This document shows positions 49,641 to 62,266 of a DNA stretch of 64,000 nt, piece by piece. The first letter of the stretch is position 1. Every line of letters begins with the position of its first letter. Source of the stretch: Candidatus Marinacidobacterales bacterium (GTDB lineage: Bacteria > Acidobacteriota > Vicinamibacteria > Marinacidobacterales > SMYC01); NCBI GenBank assembly GCA_965237955.1, contig OZ250169.1:5152001-5216000 (forward strand). Direction: 5' to 3'. The notes beneath the pieces are model-generated. The model saw only the letters and a list, made by a program, of their open reading frames with translations. It did no database searches and was not told the DNA's origin. A program made the translations under genes and the position numbers.

Positions 49641-49790
49641 ATGGAGCCCATCCGTGAAAAGGATGTCGAGCGGAGGCGTGACGCGGAGCCTGATCGTATT
49701 CGTCGCGTTTTGCGGGACATCGCCGCCGACGCGCGCGCGTTGAAGGACCGCTACCTCGACGACACGATTGTGCCCGAGGGCGGCGAGTAG
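49641..49790 (+). CDS. Candidate Pup-like small modifier, 49 aa, ending GGE (not in ORF track)
   Basis: MEPIREKDVERRRDAEPDRIRRVLRDIAADARALKDRYLDDTIVPEGGE*; RBS GAGGAG at 49625-49630; ends 29 nt before a PafA/Dop homologue. Confidence 0.82.
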   Translation: MEPIREKDVERRRDAEPDRIRRVLRDIAADARALKDRYLDDTIVPEGGE

Positions 49791-49819
49791 TCCTCGCCCC
49801 CAGGCATTGGAAGTGAGCG

Positions 49820-51493
49820 GTGCTGTTCTCTCGCCTGATGGGGCAAGAGACCGAGTACGCGATACGATTCTCTCCCAAGCTCGGCCATCCCGGTAACGAC
49901 CGTATCTACGGTTTTCTAGCCCAGGCCATCGGACGCCACGTTCGCACCGAGCCGGGCCTCTATCCGGGCCGCCCGCAGATCTTCATGCAAAACGGCGGCG
50001 GCTTTCACTATGAGTATCGGCCTCATCGTGTCGGTGATGGGCTCATCGAAGGCGCGACCCCCGAATGCCGTGGTCCGGGTCAGCTACTCTTGTATCAGAA
50101 AGCGCAAGAGGCGTTGCTCATGAAGGTCATCCCCGCGGCGGAGACGAGCCTTAGCGAGCAGGGTTTTCCCGGGAAGCTGGGCCTTCTCAAAAACTGCCGC
50201 GACGCGCAGGGAAATGTCTACGGCGCGCAGGAGAGTTTTCAAGTGAGCGTCGCGAGTGGGCTTTCGCTCGTGGCCTACCGTTTAGGATTGGCCGGCTTGC
50301 TGCCGCTCCTCGCGCTCACGGTTGTGCTCGGCTGGCTATTCATTTTCGTCGCACTCGTAGCACTCGCCTTGGCGGTCGCTGGTGGCGTCGTTGTCGCGTT
50401 GCCCCCGTTTCGCCGGCGTCGATGGCTCGAGCGTCTCATGGATTTCGAAGAGAAAAACGTCAAGAGCGCGCTCGGTCGTATGCGTGACGCGACGACGTGG
50501 CCGTTCTTCGCTGGCTTGTGGCTCGTTACGAAGCTGTTCGCATTCCGTAAGGTTCGGCGGACCGCCATGGCCTTTTTCGTTTCTCGCGCTGCCTTCTCGG
50601 GCGCCGGGAGTGTCGAGGCCCATGGTCGGTTCTCGCTCTCCGAGAAAGGTGCCGCGATCAACAGGATTCTGCGGCGTTCCATGAGTCCGTCTGAGCGGCC
50701 GATTTTCGATACCGGCAACCTCATGAGGCCGGCGTTCGCGGCCGCTCATTTTCATCTCGATCCCGTCGCGGGCCTGTTCGCGCGCAAGCAACGCTTGCAG
50801 CTCGGGCTTGCAGACTCGAGCATGCTCGAAGAGGCCGAGTTTCTCAAAATGGGCACGACCGCTCTCGTGATCGACATGGCGGAAGCGGGATTTCTCTCCG
50901 ATGCCCCTCGACCGCTCGACCCCGTTGCCGCGCTGCACACACTCGTGAGCGACCCCGCGCTCGAGGCAGTCGTGAACACGAACCAGGGCGAGCTGACCGC
51001 GCTCGCGCTCCAACGCTTCTACCTCGATAAGTCCAAAGCGTTCGTGACGGAGTCGAAAGCGACGTCACTCGAAGCGTCGGAGGTCGTCAACCTCTGGGAC
51101 GAAGTGCTGAGTGCGCTCGAGGAGCGCAAGATGGACAAGCTCGTCGGCCGCGTCGATTGGGTCACGAAACGGTATCTCCTCGAAGCGTGTGGCGACGAAG
51201 GTGATGCCGCGATGCTGAAAACGATCGACCTGCGCTACCACGAGCTCGGCGAAGGTTATGCAGAGCAGTTTGCCAAGACCGGGAACGTTCACCGCCTTCT
51301 CGCACCGTCGGAAGTCGAGCGCGCGATCGAGGAGCCGCCGGAAGGTACCCCAGCCTATACGCGCGGCCGCTTCATTCGGTCGCGGGCAGCCAACTTGACA
51401 CCGGTGCGCATCTCGTGGGACTCGGCTTTGATTGGCGGGCGCATCAAAGGGAAGATCATCCGGTTTCCCGATCGGGGCGGTCCGACAGAGTAG
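49820..51493 (+). CDS. Divergent PafA/Dop (Pup ligase/depupylase) family protein with a transmembrane insertion
   Basis: [67 protein letters not shown]. Confidence 0.9.
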
Positions 51494-54339: not shown

Positions 54340-57117
54340 AGACCTCTCCCATCCTGGTCACAAACTCGCCCGCTACGAGATTCTCGAGCCCATCGGCAAG
54401 GGCGGGGAGTTCGCTGAGAACGAAGAACGCCTAGTCCCCTGTATCAGAACAAACTAGATAAAGCAGAGCTTGCCGAAACCCTTCTAAGTGCATGAATCTT
54501 ATGAATCTTATGGGCTGGCGAAAAGCCTAACTTTGTATACTAATCAAAGATCCAGGGGACTAGCCCGATTCAAGCGAGAGGCCAAGGTTCTTGCGTCTTT
54601 GAACCATCCGAACATCGCTGCCATTCACGGGCTGGAGGAGTCCGAAGGTACACATTACCTCGTTCTCGAGCTTGTCCCGGGCGAGACTCTGGCCGAAAGG
54701 ATCTCACGCGGTCCCATTCCGGTTGAAGAAGCTATCGAGATCGCCACCAAGATCGCCGAAGCCCTGGAGGAGGCGCACGAACAAGGAATCGTTCACCGGG
54801 ATCTAAAACCCGCCAACATCAAGCAGACCGACGACGGCAAGATCAAGGTTCTGGACTTCGGTCTCGCCAAAGCTTTCGCCAAGGAATCGCCCGAGGCCGA
54901 CAGCTCGATGTCTCCCACGCTTACTAGAGATGCAACTCGGGTGGGCGTGATTCTCGGGACCGCGGCGTATATGAGTCCCGAGCAAGCCAAGGGAAAGCGT
55001 GTTGACAAGCGAACCGACGTGTGGGCGTTCGGTGCGGTCGTCTACGAGATGCTTACGGGAAAGCGGGCGTTCGCTGGTGAAGATGTTTCCGACACGCTCG
55101 CCGCTGTGCTACGAGCGGAGCCGGGCTTCGACGCGCTGCCCGCTGAGACGCCTGCCTCACTCCGGCGGGCGTTGAGGCTCTGCCTGACGAAAGACGTGAA
55201 GCAGCGCTTTCACGCCATGGGTGACGTGCGACTCATGTTGGAGGGTGCACTCGAGCCCGAGCAACCGCTCGGCCGAGCGGGCCCGTCACCACCGGCTCCA
55301 CCGGCGCGGGTCCGCACGGCGGCAGTGTTGCTGCTCGGTGTTGCGACGGGAGCGGCTGCGATTTGGTTCCTTTCTTCGCGCGAGCCTTCGCCGAAGCCGA
55401 TGGTCCGGCGGGCAGAGATCGTGCTGCCCCCATCGGAGAGGTTGTTCTATGGTGCGGGCATCGGGCGTCCCGTGATCGTGTCGCCCCAGGGGACGCATCT
55501 CGTGTACGCGGCGAGGAGAGAATCGTCTGTGCGCCAGCTCTTCGTTCGGCGTTTCGATACGGATCTCGCCACGCCTATCCCCGGAACCGAGAGAGCACTA
55601 CAGTTCTTCTTTTCCCCTGAAGGCGACTGGCTCGGTTTTTTCGCCGACGGTAAGCTCAAGAAGGTCGCACTCTCGGGAGATGTTCTCAAGGAGCTCTGCG
55701 ATGTAACCTATCCACTCGGCGGAGACTGGGGTCGCGACGAGGTCATCTACTTCGCGAGTAGTGCGTGGAGAGACGGAGAATTAGATCCATTGCTATCGGG
55801 TCTCTTTCGGATCCCGTCCGATGGGGGTGTCCCAGAGCAACTGGTGACGGCAGAAGGCGAGCATGCAGATGCTGCTCACCGGTGGCCGCACATTTTGCCG
55901 AAGGGTGACGGAGTCCTCTACACATCCTACGCGCGGGACACATTCTCATCCAACATCGTGTTTCAATCGTTGTTGACTGGAGAGAGCCGTGTCCTGATTG
56001 AAAACGGTGCCAACCCAGTCTATCTGCTGACTGGACACATTCTCTTCCGGCGAGACGACGCTCTTTTGGGGCAGCGCCTCTTGATGCCATCCGCTACCAG
56101 GTCAATGGCAATCCCGCTGAGGTGGCTGACGGGGTCTTAAGCCGTGGAGCGTTCGAATCCGGCTTCCACGTTTCGTTGGAAGGAACGCTGGTTTACGTGC
56201 GAGCTCAGGAGAATCCCGAAAGCGAGCTCGTGTGGGTGGATCGGCAGGGAGGGACGGAGCTCCTGCGCGACTCGAGGGCCGAGCATACTCCGCACCCTCG
56301 GCTCTCGCCGGAGGGGAGACGCGTTGCGGTGACCCGCGGCGGGCTCGGCGCTGATCCGCCGAGCATTTGGATTTACGAGATCGATAGAGGCATCTCGACA
56401 GAGCTGACATTATCGGACGCCGCTAGCTATCGGCCGCTTTGGACGCCGGACGGCAAGAGCATTGTCTACGGGCGCGACGCCACTGGCGGTGTTGACATTT
56501 ACATGACTCGCTCCGACGGGAGCGGGGAAGAGCACCAACTAACGTCGGGAGGGTATCGAGTCCCGACCTCCGTGTCGCCGGACGGCGCGTTCGCGTTCTT
56601 CCGCGAGATGGGACGCAGCTGGGATATCGGCATGGTGCGCCTCGACGGGTCGAGCGGCCCGGAAACGCTGGTCGCATCTGATTACGCCGAGCACACTCCT
56701 GTACTTTCGCCCGATGGGCGGTGGCCCGCCTACGTGTCCGACGAAAGCGGACGCGAGGAGATCTTCGTTCGCCCGTTCCCAGAACTCGAACCCACGACGC
56801 GTCTTTCAACGGAGGGCGGCGCGGAGCCCGCTTGGGCCAGAGGCGGAACTGAGCTCTTTTATAGGAACTTCACGAAGATGATGCTCGTCCCCATCCGAAC
56901 GGGGACCGAACTCCTGCCGGGGCGTCCTGCCGAACTCTTCGAGGGCTGGTATCAGATGGGAGACATTCAGTCGGCTCCCAATACGAACTACGACGTCTCT
57001 CTGGATGGGAAGCGGTTCCTCATGTTGCGGGATGTTGCCGGAGGTCACCTGGACTCACGTATTCAGGTAGTCTTCAACTGGCACGAAGAGCTGCTTAGGC
57101 TGGTTCCGGTGAATTGA
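54340..57117 (+). pseudogene. Hanks-type Ser/Thr kinase with TM and PD40/TolB-like propeller; N-lobe deletion, MITE insertion and frameshift near 56070
   Basis: YEILEPIGKGG, HRDLKPAN, DFGLAK, GTAAYMSPE; SPDG repeats; ends VFNWHEELLRLVPVN. Confidence 0.9.
54435..54559. mobile_element. 125-bp MITE with CTAG target duplication inside the kinase gene
   Basis: TIRs TCCCCTGTATC / GATCCAGGGGA; CTAG at 54431-54434 and 54560-54563; removal restores ERL-ARFKRE. Confidence 0.88.
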
Positions 57118-57372: not shown

Positions 57373-58651
57373 ATGCCAAACCGGATTGCTGGGATAGACG
57401 TTCACAAGAAGATGCTGGCGGTGGTGGTCGCCGACATCGCAGTAGAGGGCGAGTATAAGTTTTCGCGCCGGCGTGTGGGCACGAGACCGAGTGAGCTTCG
57501 GGCTCTGGCGGAGTGGCTGGTGGCCGAGGGGGTCGATGAAGTAGTGATGGAATCGACCGCGCAATATTGGCGCCCGGTGTGGGAGGCGTTGGAGCGGTCC
57601 TGGGCTCCGCAGTGCCGAGCTCGGCCGGGCGCGGGTGCGCAGTCGGGCAACTTGCATCTGGCGCAAGCAAAGTCGAATCGCGGCGCGCGGGGTCGGAAGC
57701 GGTATTTTCCGGATGCCGAACGATTGGTGAAGCGTTTGGTGGCGCAGGAGCTGACTCTAAGCTTCGTTCCCGAGCCGGAGCAGCGCCTGTGGCGAACGGT
57801 GATGCGCCGCAAGTACCAGTTCACGCGTAACCGGGTTCAGCTCCAAAACCGCCTAGAGTCGTTGCTGGAGGAAGCGCATCTAAAGTTGTCGAGCCTGGTG
57901 TCGGATCTTCTGGGGCTGAGTGCGCGGCGGATGTTGCAAGCCTTGGCGGACGGGGAAACGGAGCCGGCCCGCTTGGCGGAGTTGGCCGACCGTCGATTGC
58001 GTGCCACGCCCGAGCAGTTGTGCGATGCGCTCGGCGCGTGTGCCGATCTCAACCCCGTCTATCGGAAGCTCGTGCAAATGACGCTCGAGGAATTACGATT
58101 GCTCGAAGAGCAGAGCGCGCAACTCGATGAAGAGATGGCGCATCTGCTCGGCGAGCATCAAGCAGCTGTGCAACGACTCGCTGAAGTGCCTGGGCTCGGC
58201 GTGGATTCGGCGCAGCAGATCATCGCGGAAGTCGGGGCGAGCGCCGAGACGTTTCCGTCGGCCAAGCACCTCGCGTCCTGGGTGGGCGTGTGCCCCGGAG
58301 AGCACGAAAGCGCCGGCAAAAGCTACAGCCATCGCTCGCCCAAAGGCAGTCGGCCGATGCGCCGCCTCCTCAATCAAGCCGCCAACGCGGCCGTCAAGAC
58401 CAAAGGGAGTTTCTTCCAGCTCGTGTACCGGCGCTTGGTTCCACGCCTGGGGCACGCGCAAGCCATCTGGGCCGTTGCCCATCGGTTGTGTCGTTTAATC
58501 TGGAAGATTCTCCACCAGGGCGTTGACTATGAGGAACGTGGCCCCGACGTTAGCCGCGCGCGCTCCAAACGACGCATTGCCAAATATGATCCGCGACCTG
58601 CGCAAACTCGGATATCACATCGAGCCTTCTCTACGGGGAGATCCAGCATGA
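57373..58651 (+). CDS. IS110 DEDD recombinase/transposase; frameshift near 58585
   Basis: GIDVHK, VMESTAQYW, VPGLG, HESAGK; true tail MIRDLRKLGY ends at TGA 58651. Confidence 0.93.
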
Positions 58652-58670
58652 CGATAGATGTTTTTCGATC

Positions 58671-59360
58671 CTGGTTCGAAGAGTTGAAGCGCCTCGTCCC
58701 GACCGACAACTGACATGCCCCTCACCCCGGAACCAAGCTCGGCACCTACGAGATCATCGCCGCCATCGGCGCAGGTGGAATGGAGAAGTCTACCGAGCCA
58801 GCGACACCAAGCTCGACCGAGACGTTGCAATCAAAGTCCTTCCCGAGGAGTTCGCCCAAGACAAGGAGCGCCTTGCCAGGTTCGAGCGGGAGGCCAAGCT
58901 CCTGGCGCAGCTGAACCATTCGAACATCGCCACGCTCCATGGGCTCGAAGAGCACGAAGGCCAGCAGTTCCTGGTGATGGAGCTCGTCGAGGGGGAGATC
59001 TTGGCGGAGCGGATTGCGCAGGGTCCGATCCCCGTCGACGAAGCGATCCCGCTCTTCATCCAGATTGCCGAAGGCCTCGAAGCGGCTCATGACAAGGGAA
59101 TCATTCATCGAGACCTGAAGCCGGCGAACATCAAGATCGGTCCAGACGGCAAGCCGAAGATTCTGGACTTCGGTTTGGCGAAGGCGCTGGAAGGGGACGA
59201 AGGTAGTGATCCGTCGGAGTCGCCCACGATGACAGCCGCCCCCACGCGGGCGGGTGTGATCATGGGCACGGCGGTGTACATGTCGCCGGAGCAAGCCCGG
59301 GGCAAGCCAGTCGATAGGCGGGCTGACATCTGGTCGTTTGGCGTCGTGCTCTTCGAGATC
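58671..59360 (+). pseudogene. Orphan kinase 3' end (WFEELKRLVPTDN*) followed by a frameshifted, truncated Ser/Thr kinase (ATG 58715)
   Basis: GTYEIIAAIGAGG, DVAIKVLPEE, HRDLKPAN, DFGLAK; homology stops after DIWSFGVVLFE. Confidence 0.88.
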
Positions 59361-59513
59361 TCGCCTCGGCAACTACGAGGTCCTCTCCGACCTGGGCGCT
59401 GGCGCGCTGAGACCACCCGGCGATCGCCTCCGCCGCCGCATGAACTTCTCCGAGCGCTAAAGCGCAAGCGGTCGGAGCCTGAAAGAAATCCCGGGGTAGG
59501 TGATACTTGGCGA

Positions 59514-59897
59514 CTAGCGATCAGGCGGGGTGAAGGCTGTTGAATCGAGTATGGTTCGGAGTGTCTCGCGCTTGCCCTCCGACAGTCCCGTGAACTCGAT
59601 TCCACAAAGCGCCTGGCTGCCATCCGCCTTGAGCGGTTGGCTCCAGACTACGCGCCCGCTCGCTTCCAGCATCTCTCCGTCGGAAAAACTCAGCATCATC
59701 TGGATGCCACGCCGAGTGTATACCTCACCCGTCTGCACACACGCGCCGCCCTCGGAGATGTTGGTCACGACCCCGTACGCGAACGGGAGGCCGTGCTCTA
59801 GGACGGCAACGGTTACTGATTGAGCTGGTACAAGGCGCGGTGATCTGCGAGCAGGAGCGAAGGGTTCGAGCGATTTGGGTTTCTTTGCCCCCTGCAT
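59514..59897 (-). CDS. PilZ domain protein
   Basis: RRSPR and NISEGG motifs. Confidence 0.85.
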   Translation of the reverse strand: MQGAKKPKSLEPFAPARRSPRLVPAQSVTVAVLEHGLPFAYGVVTNISEGGACVQTGEVYTRRGIQMMLSFSDGEMLEASGRVVWSQPLKADGSQALCGIEFTGLSEGKRETLRTILDSTAFTPPDR

Positions 59898-60398
59898 GAT
59901 GAATCCCCCAAAGCCTGTGCCCTGGGGGCAGGATGCGGCATTTGATGTACGTTAGAAGCAAACACCATGCTAGGAGTTGGCGCCATCGCTTGCCCGCGTC
60001 GGAGGTGGCTTGTTTGCTGTCGGATACGTCGATGCAGAAAGTATTGTGGTATCCGTCCCGTGGGTAGTTCCCAACAATACCGTGTCGCCACGTAGCATTG
60101 CATGCCCAAGATGGTCATCCGGCGTCGGCGATGTGTACCTCACCATGTGTCGAAGTGGGGCACTGCCAAGTCGCGGCTGACGAAGAAGACACGTCTTTCG
60201 CAGACTGGACGCAGGGCTGCTCCAACCCGAGCCGTCCCTCGAAGTCGAATGTTAGCGGCGGGCGTAAATTGCACACTTATGGCGGACGAAAATTGCACAC
60301 TCGGCCATCCGTAAAAGGAGGCCGTTGTCGTGTGTCTGGAGTGCCAGACATGACGGCGCGCCTTCAATCAGAATGGCGTTTCCGGAGTGGAGGCGCCG

Positions 60399-61442
60399 AT
60401 GTACGGAAGGGAGAAACGAGTGTTACTACGAGAGTATTTGGAGCAGGGAATCAAGAAGGCGGCGCTAGCAGACAAGCTAGGAATCAGCCGCCGAACGGTC
60501 CACCACTGGATAAAGACGGGTCAACTGGACCGAGAGTTGGACGAGGAAACGGTGCGCTACAAGAAGCGTCCGCGGATCGAGCGCAGGATCGACCCGTACC
60601 GGGAGATCCTTCATTCGCGCCTGCACGAGTTCCCGGAGCTGAGTTCAGTACGCCTGCATGATGAGATCCGTGCCGCGGGCTATGAAGGCGGCTACACGCA
60701 GGTCAAGGAGTACGTGCGGCAGATTCGCCCACAGCCACCGGCGGAGCCGCTGGTGCGTTTCGAGACCCCACCAGGCCACCAAGCTCAGGTCGATTTTGCA
60801 CACTTTCGTTTGCCATGGGGTCGTCGGTGGGCACTTCTCGTGGTGCTCGGATACTCGAGGCTGCTATGGCTTCGGTTTTTCAAGCGACAGGACATGCGGA
60901 CGTTGTTCGCGGGGCTTGAGCAGGCCTTCCTATTTTTTGGAGGAGTTCCCAAAGAGCTCCTTTTTGACCAGATGCGTTCGGTCATCGTCGAGGATCACCG
61001 CCGGGAAGGTGGCCCTCTCGTTGAGAACCCAGAGTTCGTCCGCTTCGCCCACCACTGGGAGTTTCGAACAAGAGCGTGTCGCCCGTATCGGGCGAAGACC
61101 AAGGGCAAAGTGGAAAGGCCAATCCGCTATGTGAGAGGAAGCTTCTTCTACGGTCGCCACTTTATCAACGATGACGACCTCGATGCTCAGCTCGAGCGTT
61201 GGCTGAGTGACGTCGCCAACGTCCGACTCCATCGCACAACCAACGAACGACCGATAGAACGATTCGCGCGCGATGAAAGGGCCACTCTGAGACCGCTCGT
61301 TGAGCGGCCATATCGCTCTCTTGTACTGCCAAACCAACCCGCGAGAAGAACTCCAAAAGCCTGCTTAACCACACTGCCTTCGATGGATGTCGAGCATCGT
61401 CCCCTCGAAGTCTACACGCGGCTCGTTGGAGGTGGACAATGA
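60399..61442 (+). CDS. istA: IS21 transposase IstA
   Basis: RFETPPGHQAQVDF, GGVPKELLFDQM, KTKGKVER. Confidence 0.96.
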   Translation: MYGREKRVLLREYLEQGIKKAALADKLGISRRTVHHWIKTGQLDRELDEETVRYKKRPRIERRIDPYREILHSRLHEFPELSSVRLHDEIRAAGYEGGYTQVKEYVRQIRPQPPAEPLVRFETPPGHQAQVDFAHFRLPWGRRWALLVVLGYSRLLWLRFFKRQDMRTLFAGLEQAFLFFGGVPKELLFDQMRSVIVEDHRREGGPLVENPEFVRFAHHWEFRTRACRPYRAKTKGKVERPIRYVRGSFFYGRHFINDDDLDAQLERWLSDVANVRLHRTTNERPIERFARDERATLRPLVERPYRSLVLPNQPARRTPKACLTTLPSMDVEHRPLEVYTRLVGGGQ

Positions 61443-62266
61443 AGGCGAGCACAATATCGCGACGTGAGCAGATCCGTACGATGCTGGCCGACCTAAAGAT
61501 GCCTGGCGCGCTCGAAGCTGTCGACCGCGTACTATCTGATGCCGATGGCGGTGCGGTCACAACGGCGGAGGCCATCGAGAACCTTCTTGGAGCGCAGATC
61601 ACGTTGAGAAACAACCGTCGTCTCCAAGCGGCGATGCGCTCCTCACGACTCCCCGCGGTCAAAACAATCGATGAGTTCGATTTTTCGTTCCAGCCATCGA
61701 TCAAACGCGAGCAGATTGAGAACCTTCACGAGCTCGGGTTCGTTGAACGTAAGGAGAACGTCGTCTTATTGGGACCTACTGGTGTGGGCAAAACTCATCT
61801 TGCCATCGCCGCTGCCCAGAATGGACGGCGCGTCTATTACGGCACCCTGGCTGAGCTCATCACCTCCCTCGAAGAGGCTCGTGACGCGGGCCGCCTCACT
61901 CGTCGACTCGCGGTTCTCAGTTATCCGTCACTGCTTGTTGTCGATGAAATCGGATACCTACCCGTCACCCAGACCGGCGCGGTGCTTTTTTTCCAGCTCA
62001 TAAGTAGGCGATACGAGCGCGCTTCGACCGTGCTCACCTCTAACAAAAGTTTCGAGGAATGGGGCGAGATCCTTGGCGACGAAGTCATGGCCGCCGCTCT
62101 CATCGACCGCATTCTGCACCACTGCCACCTCGTCAACATCCGAGGAAACAGTTACCGCATGAGAGAGCACTCCGAACTGTGGCGAGCGCTCCATCCGGCG
62201 GGTTCGGACGAACCTCACCCGCCGGCTAAATCTCATAGGAAATACACGGAGGCGACGGCGTCATAG
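61439..62266 (+). CDS. istB: IS21 helper ATPase IstB
   Basis: GPTGVGKT Walker A, VVDEIGY, DRILHH, GNSYR. Confidence 0.96.
   Translation: MKASTISRREQIRTMLADLKMPGALEAVDRVLSDADGGAVTTAEAIENLLGAQITLRNNRRLQAAMRSSRLPAVKTIDEFDFSFQPSIKREQIENLHELGFVERKENVVLLGPTGVGKTHLAIAAAQNGRRVYYGTLAELITSLEEARDAGRLTRRLAVLSYPSLLVVDEIGYLPVTQTGAVLFFQLISRRYERASTVLTSNKSFEEWGEILGDEVMAAALIDRILHHCHLVNIRGNSYRMREHSELWRALHPAGSDEPHPPAKSHRKYTEATAS

What the first reader, a model, noticed from the sequence alone, without database searches (positions are those of the whole stretch)
50245..50570. Hydrophobic insertion of about 100 aa inside the PafA/Dop catalytic domain
Seen: between YGAQES and FFVSR..FSGAG lies a hydrophobic run of about 50 residues ([50 protein letters not shown]), then RRRR and a second apolar segment ([16 protein letters not shown]). 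Established: characterised PafA and Dop are soluble, with only a short spacer between YGxHENY and FLV[S/T]RQ..GAG. Inference: a TM hairpin tethers the enzyme to the inner membrane.
Basis: partly seen in the sequence, partly recalled or inferred. Interest (0 to 1): 0.75.

Follow-up and report, generated by a model that had tools for sequence, protein, structure and literature searches.

The report
Membrane-anchored Pup-type ligase with tag
This gene encodes a relative of the bacterial protein-tagging enzymes PafA and Dop, with a conserved greasy insertion that likely anchors it in the cell membrane, and it sits directly behind a small tag-like gene; the arrangement was predicted from genomes in 2008 and I found no laboratory test of it.

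Summary
ORF 49820-51493 (557 aa, Pfam Pup_ligase) has 123 residues from YGAQES to FFVSR, against 29 in solved PafA and Dop: about 94 extra, with a 43-residue uncharged run. All 200 scorable top-ranked homologues share the insert, so it is no artefact. The genome has no second PafA/Dop gene, 20S proteasome or ARC ATPase. The kind is known: Iyer et al. 2008 (PMC2588565) predicted transmembrane-insert Pup ligases in Plesiocystis and Rhodopirellula, and this protein is 43% identical to the Plesiocystis one, insert included. This scan reported the module at least nine times on other genomes. Added here: hydropathy and charge favour a two-pass hairpin plus surface helices over four passes; the clade has a rewired active site (Asp to Glu, two His to Gln, an essential Arg to Gly with a new Lys nearby); it reaches Acidobacteriota, Myxococcota, Planctomycetota and Spirochaetota. 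Reaction direction, acceptor and purpose remain untested. New member of a known kind; interest 0.3.

The parts
49641..49790 (+). Pup-like tag, 49 aa, ending YLDDTIVPEGGE; AGGAG 10 nt before the ATG; no Pfam or NCBIfam match
   Evidence: sequence; homologues upstream of the ligase in 76 of 80 loci by profile, 78 of 79 assessable after inspection; invariant Y38, G47, G48, E49; model: helices 6-33 and 35-41 with an extended tail
49820..51493 (+). PafA/Dop-family carboxylate-amine ligase of the membrane-insert clade, 557 aa
   Evidence: PF03136 241 bits; below the TIGR03686 and TIGR03688 cut-offs; model pLDDT 92, Z 43.6 to Dop 5LRT and 38.4 to PafA 4BJR; 43% identical over 583 columns to Plesiocystis pacifica PPSIR1_01914
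50246..50557 (+). The insert, residues 143-246, after core strand 4 (YGAQES)
   Evidence: model helices 147-193 and 202-240
50282..50410 (+). 43-residue uncharged run (155-197): predicted two-pass hairpin, between invariant R154 and RRRR; conserved P162 and W172
50423..50545 (+). Amphipathic helix 202-219 (hydrophobic moment 1.32) and apolar segment 227-242: predicted to lie in the membrane surface, not across it
   Evidence: inference from hydropathy and flanking basic residues
50729..50785 (+). Second, shorter clade-specific insertion (about 304-322), apolar and amphipathic, replacing the RDEPHAD loop region of soluble PafA/Dop
   Evidence: alignment; moment 1.1 for 299-320; model helices 299-308 and 314-318

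Best explanation
The gene pair is likely a membrane-tethered protein-tagging module: the 557-aa enzyme is predicted to hang on the cytoplasmic face of the inner membrane by its hydrophobic insert, and would use ATP to join the terminal glutamate of the 49-aa GGE-ending tag to lysines of proteins at the membrane. Shown: the insert, its conservation, the adjacent tag, the intact PafA/Dop fold in a model, and the absence of a second PafA/Dop gene, 20S subunits and ARC from this genome. Inferred: membrane insertion (about 0.93), the two-pass hairpin with surface helices (about 0.6), activation of the tag's glutamate as an acyl-phosphate as in PafA (about 0.85), a protein lysine as acceptor (about 0.65). 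Because the tag is encoded with Glu, no deamidase is needed. With no proteasome the mark would be regulatory or be read by another machine; FtsH is present in the genome but nothing links it to the module.
For: Insert conserved in 200 of 200 scorable homologues; positive charges flank the run. Tag in 78 of 79 assessable loci, all ending GGE (72 of these were first picked by that ending). Metal, ATP and tag-binding positions stay fixed in 262 aligned sequences: E10 and E12 256 each, E65, E77, Q137, R256, R325, Q327 262 each, R293 254, D332 259. Fold match to Dop and PafA over about 425 residues at 2.4-3.2 A. One PF03136 gene in this 98% complete single-contig genome; the only PF00227 match is HslV beside HslU; no TIGR03690 or TIGR03691 match, no TIGR03689 match over cut-off. 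44 of 46 clade genomes have only this PF03136 gene, and 0 of 46 have TIGR03691 against 4 of 7 genomes with soluble PafA/Dop. Same prediction in PMC2588565 (whole text read).
Against: The active site departs from characterised PafA. Catalytic D64 is Glu; R60 is Ala/Gly; H68 is Leu; H130 and the RLH His are Gln; the TT pair is gone; the NTRDEPH Arg is Gly (256 of 262), although R193A kills M. smegmatis PafA and R207A nearly kills C. glutamicum PafA. Rescue by K303 (251 of 262; Arg here) is only my inference. The model scores slightly closer to Dop than to PafA (Z 43.6 against 38.4), and the clade lies outside both groups (PMC7947786 used the planctomycete copy as outgroup). No conserved substrate, protease or membrane-protein neighbour. 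One locus (L079) has the ligase without an upstream tag. The model draws the insert as two long antiparallel helices, not as the hairpin I favour. No expression of the ligase shown.
Confidence: 0.62

Rival explanations
1. Same anchor and tag, but the acceptor is a membrane amine that is not a protein lysine (phosphatidylethanolamine, an amino-lipid or a cell-wall precursor), so the tag itself becomes lipid-bound.
For: The loop that grips protein substrates in PafA (T197, T198, R199, R201, R207, P210) is the part most changed here and gains an apolar 19-residue insertion. No proteasome and no conserved substrate or protease neighbour.
Against: R293 (PafA R201) is kept in 254 of 262. All characterised members of the family act on protein lysines (established). 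Nothing here points to a particular lipid.
Confidence: 0.1
2. The single enzyme is Dop-like or two-way: it removes the tag, or both adds and removes it.
For: Higher structural score and identity to Dop (Z 43.6, 29%) than to PafA (Z 38.4, 25%). The G-to-YG distance of 126 lies between PafA (113) and Dop (146) (my count). PMC7947786 says planctomycete copies partly align with the Dop-loop and that few changes switch activity.
Against: A pure remover makes no sense where no other ligase exists. The tag already ends in Glu. The Arg and His that hold phosphate in Dop (R227, H241) are Gly and Gln here.
Confidence: 0.13
3. The anchor has another topology: four passes (the 2008 prediction) or a long hairpin lying in one leaflet without crossing.
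For: PMC2588565 states four segments. The Plesiocystis insert has a longer apolar second half. The model gives two long helices, 147-193 and 202-240. No conserved turn residue or charged loop splits the 43-residue run.
Against: Greedy 19-mer counts give 2 or 3 windows in 114 of 121 sequences, 4 in one. Between R220 and K238 only 17 positions are apolar in the family, too few for two passes, and here R222 and D223 interrupt them.
Confidence: 0.3
4. The insert is not a membrane anchor but a hydrophobic stalk for dimerisation or partner binding in a soluble complex.
For: The model shows a continuous helical hairpin; AlphaFold does not place membranes.
Against: Residues 173-194 are apolar on all faces (moment 0.38-0.45, mean KD 2.7) and vary freely among apolar residues, as lipid-facing helices do; the run is bounded by basic residues.
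Confidence: 0.05

Closest known systems
Transmembrane-insert Pup ligases with adjacent Pup of Plesiocystis pacifica and Rhodopirellula baltica (Iyer, Burroughs, Aravind 2008, PMC2588565; computational)
   Same: Insert right after core strand 4; single copy; adjacent short GGE-ending ORF; no proteasome link; Q variants of the [HQ]x[NH] and [QH]x4D motifs; 43% identity to P. pacifica PPSIR1_01914, whose insert span is 130 aa; one clade with it at SH-aLRT 100 with the insert removed.
   Different: Here in Acidobacteriota. Hydropathy suggests two passes, not four. The linked membrane-protein gene of the paper is absent: neighbours are a class III aminotransferase and chorismate synthase; a DUF456 gene follows in only 4 of 79 loci. 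The Rhodopirellula protein itself was not retrieved.
Actinobacterial PafA (TIGR03686; C. glutamicum 4B0T, 4BJR)
   Same: Fold (Z 38.4, 425 residues), GxExE motif, most acidic and Arg active-site positions, adjacent tag ending GG[EQ].
   Different: Soluble, 29-residue spacer, works with Dop, ARC/Mpa and the 20S proteasome. This protein scores 163 bits against a cut-off of 551 and lacks R60, D64 (Glu), H68, H130 (Gln), the TT pair and R207.
Dop depupylase (TIGR03688; 4B0R, 5LRT)
   Same: Fold (Z 43.6, 427 residues); TPE motif after the strand-3 Glu.
   Different: 149 bits against 492; no full Dop-loop; R227 and H241 equivalents are Gly and Gln.
Pup (PF05639) and UBact tags (UBact recalled; the paper was not held)
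   Same: Short, acidic, helical core plus extended GGE tail, encoded beside the ligase.
   Different: 0 of 70 aligned tags match a Pup or UBact model in Pfam at E up to 1. The tail is YLxETxVPxGGE, not FV/F..xQxGG[EQ]; profile comparison with one soluble-system tag gave probability 3%.

Membership tests
Transmembrane-insert Pup ligase clade (Iyer 2008) | PafA-family catalytic domain | tested here: met
   PF03136 241 bits against cut-off 25; fold
Transmembrane-insert Pup ligase clade (Iyer 2008) | Hydrophobic insertion immediately after core strand 4 | tested here: met
   residues 143-246 follow YGAQES
Transmembrane-insert Pup ligase clade (Iyer 2008) | Four transmembrane segments | tested here: inconclusive
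   2 KD windows here, 2-3 in most relatives; no topology predictor available; the Plesiocystis protein aligns through the insert
Transmembrane-insert Pup ligase clade (Iyer 2008) | Adjacent Pup-like ORF ending G[EQ] | tested here: met
   49641-49790 ends GGE
Transmembrane-insert Pup ligase clade (Iyer 2008) | No linked proteasome genes | tested here: met
Transmembrane-insert Pup ligase clade (Iyer 2008) | Groups with the Plesiocystis protein | tested here: met
   43% identity; clade support 100 in a quick tree with the insert removed
Transmembrane-insert Pup ligase clade (Iyer 2008) | Linked membrane-protein gene (reported for the two founder genomes; a neighbourhood remark, not a property of the enzyme) | tested here: inconclusive
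   None beside this gene; 22 of 79 loci have some ORF with 2 or more hydrophobic windows within 1.5 kb, of unrelated kinds. The paper's supplement naming the gene could not be read.
PafA proper (TIGR03686) | Equivalog score of at least 551 bits | tested here: not met
   163 bits
PafA proper (TIGR03686) | Catalytic Asp64 and loop Arg207 | tested here: not met
   Glu65 in 262 of 262, Gly299 in 256 of 262
PafA proper (TIGR03686) | ATP-dependent isopeptide ligation of the tag to protein lysines | not testable with these tools
   needs biochemistry
Dop proper (TIGR03688) | Equivalog score of at least 492 bits | tested here: not met
   149 bits
Dop proper (TIGR03688) | Dop-loop of about 40 residues | tested here: inconclusive
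   the region is 13 residues longer than in PafA and 20 shorter than in Dop (counts)
Pup/UBact tag families | Match to the Pfam models | tested here: not met
   0 of 70
Pup/UBact tag families | Helical core with extended GG[EQ] tail | tested here: met
   model pLDDT 79, helices 6-33 and 35-41; a common shape, weak evidence

The most novel reading that the evidence does not exclude
The membrane-insert clade has changed acceptor: its rewired active site and the apolar loop beside it join the GGE tag to a membrane lipid amine, a bacterial counterpart of Atg8 lipidation built from the Pup machinery, in lineages (Planctomycetota, Myxococcota, large-genome Acidobacteriota) known for complex cell biology.
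Probability: 0.1. Interest if true: 0.85.

Novelty: new member of a known kind. Interest (0 to 1): 0.3.

Why it matters
All characterised pupylation feeds a proteasome or works with Dop in the cytoplasm. This two-gene module has neither and appears tied to the membrane, so its targets and purpose are an open question since 2008. It is testable with two genes in E. coli, and cultured carriers exist (Plesiocystis pacifica, Chondromyces crocatus, Paraliomyxa miuraensis, Pseudenhygromyxa sp.). A self-anchoring ligase with its own tag could also serve proximity labelling of membrane proteins. The finding itself adds a member, not a kind.

Tried and rejected
Assembly artefact or frame error: rejected (open frame, 200 homologues, matching contig). 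Proteasome link: rejected. Conserved third gene: none; aminotransferase and chorismate synthase flank 13 and 12 loci, all Acidobacteriota near kin; KptA follows in 3 and DUF456 in 4 of 79 loci. Second tag copy in the genome: none (next best E 0.37). Covariation (MI-APC, 262 sequences) to fix the helix pairing: dominated by lineage signal around residue 310, uninformative; a 167-226 pair at z 4.4 fits the model's register but is not above that noise. ESM Atlas for the tag: no usable hit. Promoter scan: no sigma-70-like site; terminators at chance level. Expression: three runs on record as RNA held 6-8% of the words; in X1 one 217-nt contig at depth 2.3 covers 49653-49869 (tag and ligase start) with no difference, X4 covers only the upstream gene end; neither covers the ligase body, and DNA carry-over is not excluded. 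Trees are quick IQ-TREE runs without bootstrap; one search left out 9 rows (duplicates, fragments, very divergent) and half of the membrane-type rows, one search left out 10 and three quarters; no actinobacterial PafA/Dop sequence was in them. Literature: searches found no experimental study of this clade; they cover open papers only. The 2008 supplement (alignments, neighbourhoods) and the UBact paper could not be read and may bear on the segment count, the linked gene and whether this tag family was named.

Full report
Observation. The finding lies in ORF 49820-51493 (+), 557 aa, a Pfam Pup_ligase at 241 bits that falls far below the PafA and Dop equivalog cut-offs (163 of 551, 149 of 492). 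From Y134 of YGAQES to R256 of FFVSR there are 123 residues. My count from the printed alignments gives 29 in PafA 4B0T and in Dop 4B0R, and 12 soluble relatives from the same phylum have 36-41. The insert holds a 43-residue uncharged run (155-197, best KD19 2.95), reached by 2 and 1 of 2000 shuffles; 27 soluble control rows reach at most 28 and 2.01.

Conservation. Of 207 proteins from two homology searches (the best 120 listed of 646 and of 630), 200 have both flanking motifs and all 200 have a hydrophobic span of 111-144 aa; 5 of the other 7 are partial. The sample favours this clade. The gene is found in 15 of 18 genomes of the same family and 0 of 22 from two other families of the order. 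In 301 genomes of the phylum 14 have a PF03136 match; this genome and G168 are of the membrane type. A genome-wide scan confirmed 341 stretches and returned 79 loci, from Acidobacteriota, Myxococcota, Planctomycetota, Spirochaetota and a few others. The nearest named relatives, at 68% identity, are labelled Ca. Marinacidobacterales (Acidobacteriota).

Topology. R154 is invariant in 88 rows, P162 is in 85, W172 in 58, and at least two K/R follow the run in 84. Residues 202-219 are amphipathic (moment 1.32). The second apolar stretch lies between R220 and K238, 17 positions in the family, and scores only 1.18 here. By the positive-inside rule (established knowledge) 154, 198-201, 220 and 238-247 are all cytoplasmic, which gives two passes in 155-197 and surface helices after them. 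This is inference. The AlphaFold model (pLDDT 92, 88 sequences) instead draws helices 147-193 and 202-240 as one long hairpin, so a one-leaflet arrangement stays open. The core matches Dop and PafA over about 425 residues (Z 43.6 and 38.4), so the insert leaves the fold intact in the model.

The tag. A 49-aa ORF at 49641-49790 ends VPEGGE, 29 nt before the ligase start. A profile from 72 such ORFs, picked by their GGE ending, finds one in 76 of 80 loci. Of the four left, L053 and L063 show the tail (contig edge, frameshift), L084 starts inside the ligase and L079 has none: 78 of 79 assessable. The consensus tail is IxxDAxxxxxxYLxETxVPxGGE. None of 70 aligned tags matches Pup or UBact in Pfam.

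Genome context. This genome (98% complete, one contig, 6% contamination) has one PF03136 gene, HslV as its only PF00227 match, no 20S alpha or beta match and no ARC over cut-off; the best AAA match is FtsH. I gave 46 of the 79 loci's genomes to further searches: 44 have only this gene, some in pieces, and G375 and G385 also have a separate pair; 0 of 46 have TIGR03691, against 4 of 7 genomes with soluble PafA/Dop. Many are incomplete assemblies. No third gene is conserved beyond near kin.

Active site. In 262 sequences E65, E77, Q137, R256, R325 and Q327 are invariant, and E10, E12, R293 and D332 nearly so. Against soluble enzymes the clade has Glu for the catalytic Asp (D64 in C. glutamicum PafA; bioRxiv 10.64898/2026.04.10.717840, passages), Gln for two His, Lys for the SQR Arg, no R60 or H68, no TT pair, and Gly for the NTRDEPH Arg. 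That Arg is essential in PafA (PMC7947786, passages) and holds phosphate in Dop (PMC8599861, passages). K303, four residues on in a modelled helix, is present in 251 of 262 (Arg in this protein) and may replace it; that is inference. These changes are the main evidence against a plain PafA reaction, while the invariance of the site and of the tag's GGE argues that chemistry on the tag is kept.

Mechanism. Most likely the enzyme is held at the cytoplasmic face of the inner membrane, phosphorylates the tag's terminal Glu with ATP and joins it to lysines of nearby proteins (0.62). Rivals: another topology (0.3, compatible with the same chemistry), a removing or two-way enzyme (0.13), a lipid or other amine acceptor (0.1), a soluble stalk (0.05). 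Binding of tag to enzyme was not modelled.

Prior art. [quoted passage not shown] The P. pacifica protein PPSIR1_01914 is 43% identical over 583 columns with the same insert and falls in one clade with this protein when the insert is removed (SH-aLRT 100, quick tree). PMC7947786 (section 5) notes a single planctomycete copy outside both PafA and Dop. A 2025 review (PMC12288473) has no hit for membrane, Planctomyc or UBact (term search only). PMC2837639 (passages) only cites the 2008 paper. Searches found no experimental study. Nine earlier notes of this scan describe the module on other genomes; my reading was fixed before I saw them.

Verdict. Real, conserved and probably membrane-anchoring, but a new member of a kind predicted in 2008. 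The residual interest lies in the untested function and the rewired active site. Interest 0.3.

Noticed in passing
L079:5592-5978 (+): The one intact locus without an upstream tag has a 128-aa ORF with three hydrophobic windows directly before the ligase.
   Followed up: partly
G375:C5:770508-773592 and G385:C29:306588-309738: Two planctomycete genomes carry a separate tandem pair of PF03136 genes besides the membrane type, yet have no TIGR03691 match.
   Followed up: no
L091-L094, L104-L107 (G198, G240, G272, G077): Divergent soluble PafA/Dop pairs with a GGQ-ending tag between them; G077, G198 and G272 gave no 20S-alpha match (G240 not searched).
   Followed up: partly
L098-L103: The PafA-like partners in these Acidobacteriota have a longer N-terminal loop region than their Dop-like partners (motif distance 151-156 against 144-146), the reverse of the actinobacterial pattern.
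   Followed up: no
L006, L007, L020, directly after the ligase: A KptA/Tpt1 RNA 2'-phosphotransferase gene sits between the ligase and chorismate synthase in 3 of 79 loci; absent in this window.
   Followed up: partly
L040, L041, L050, L055, directly after the ligase: A DUF456 membrane protein follows in 4 planctomycete loci; possibly the linked membrane protein of the 2008 paper (not checkable).
   Followed up: partly
window:54488-59372: Ser/Thr kinase and PD40-repeat ORFs appear split (54488-56140, 56122-57117), followed by an IS110 transposase (57373-58713) and a further kinase fragment (58974-59543); IS21-like istAB at 60387-62266.
   Followed up: no
window:45094-47138 (-): FAD-binding oxidoreductase and short-chain dehydrogenase pair resembling DprE1/DprE2 (label recalled; Pfam gave FAD_binding_4 and adh_short).
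   Followed up: no
window:43018-43839 (-): 273-aa ORF with no Pfam match at E 1e-4, ending in a VPEP motif, hydrophobic stretch and basic tail, like a PEP-CTERM sorting signal (recalled).
   Followed up: no
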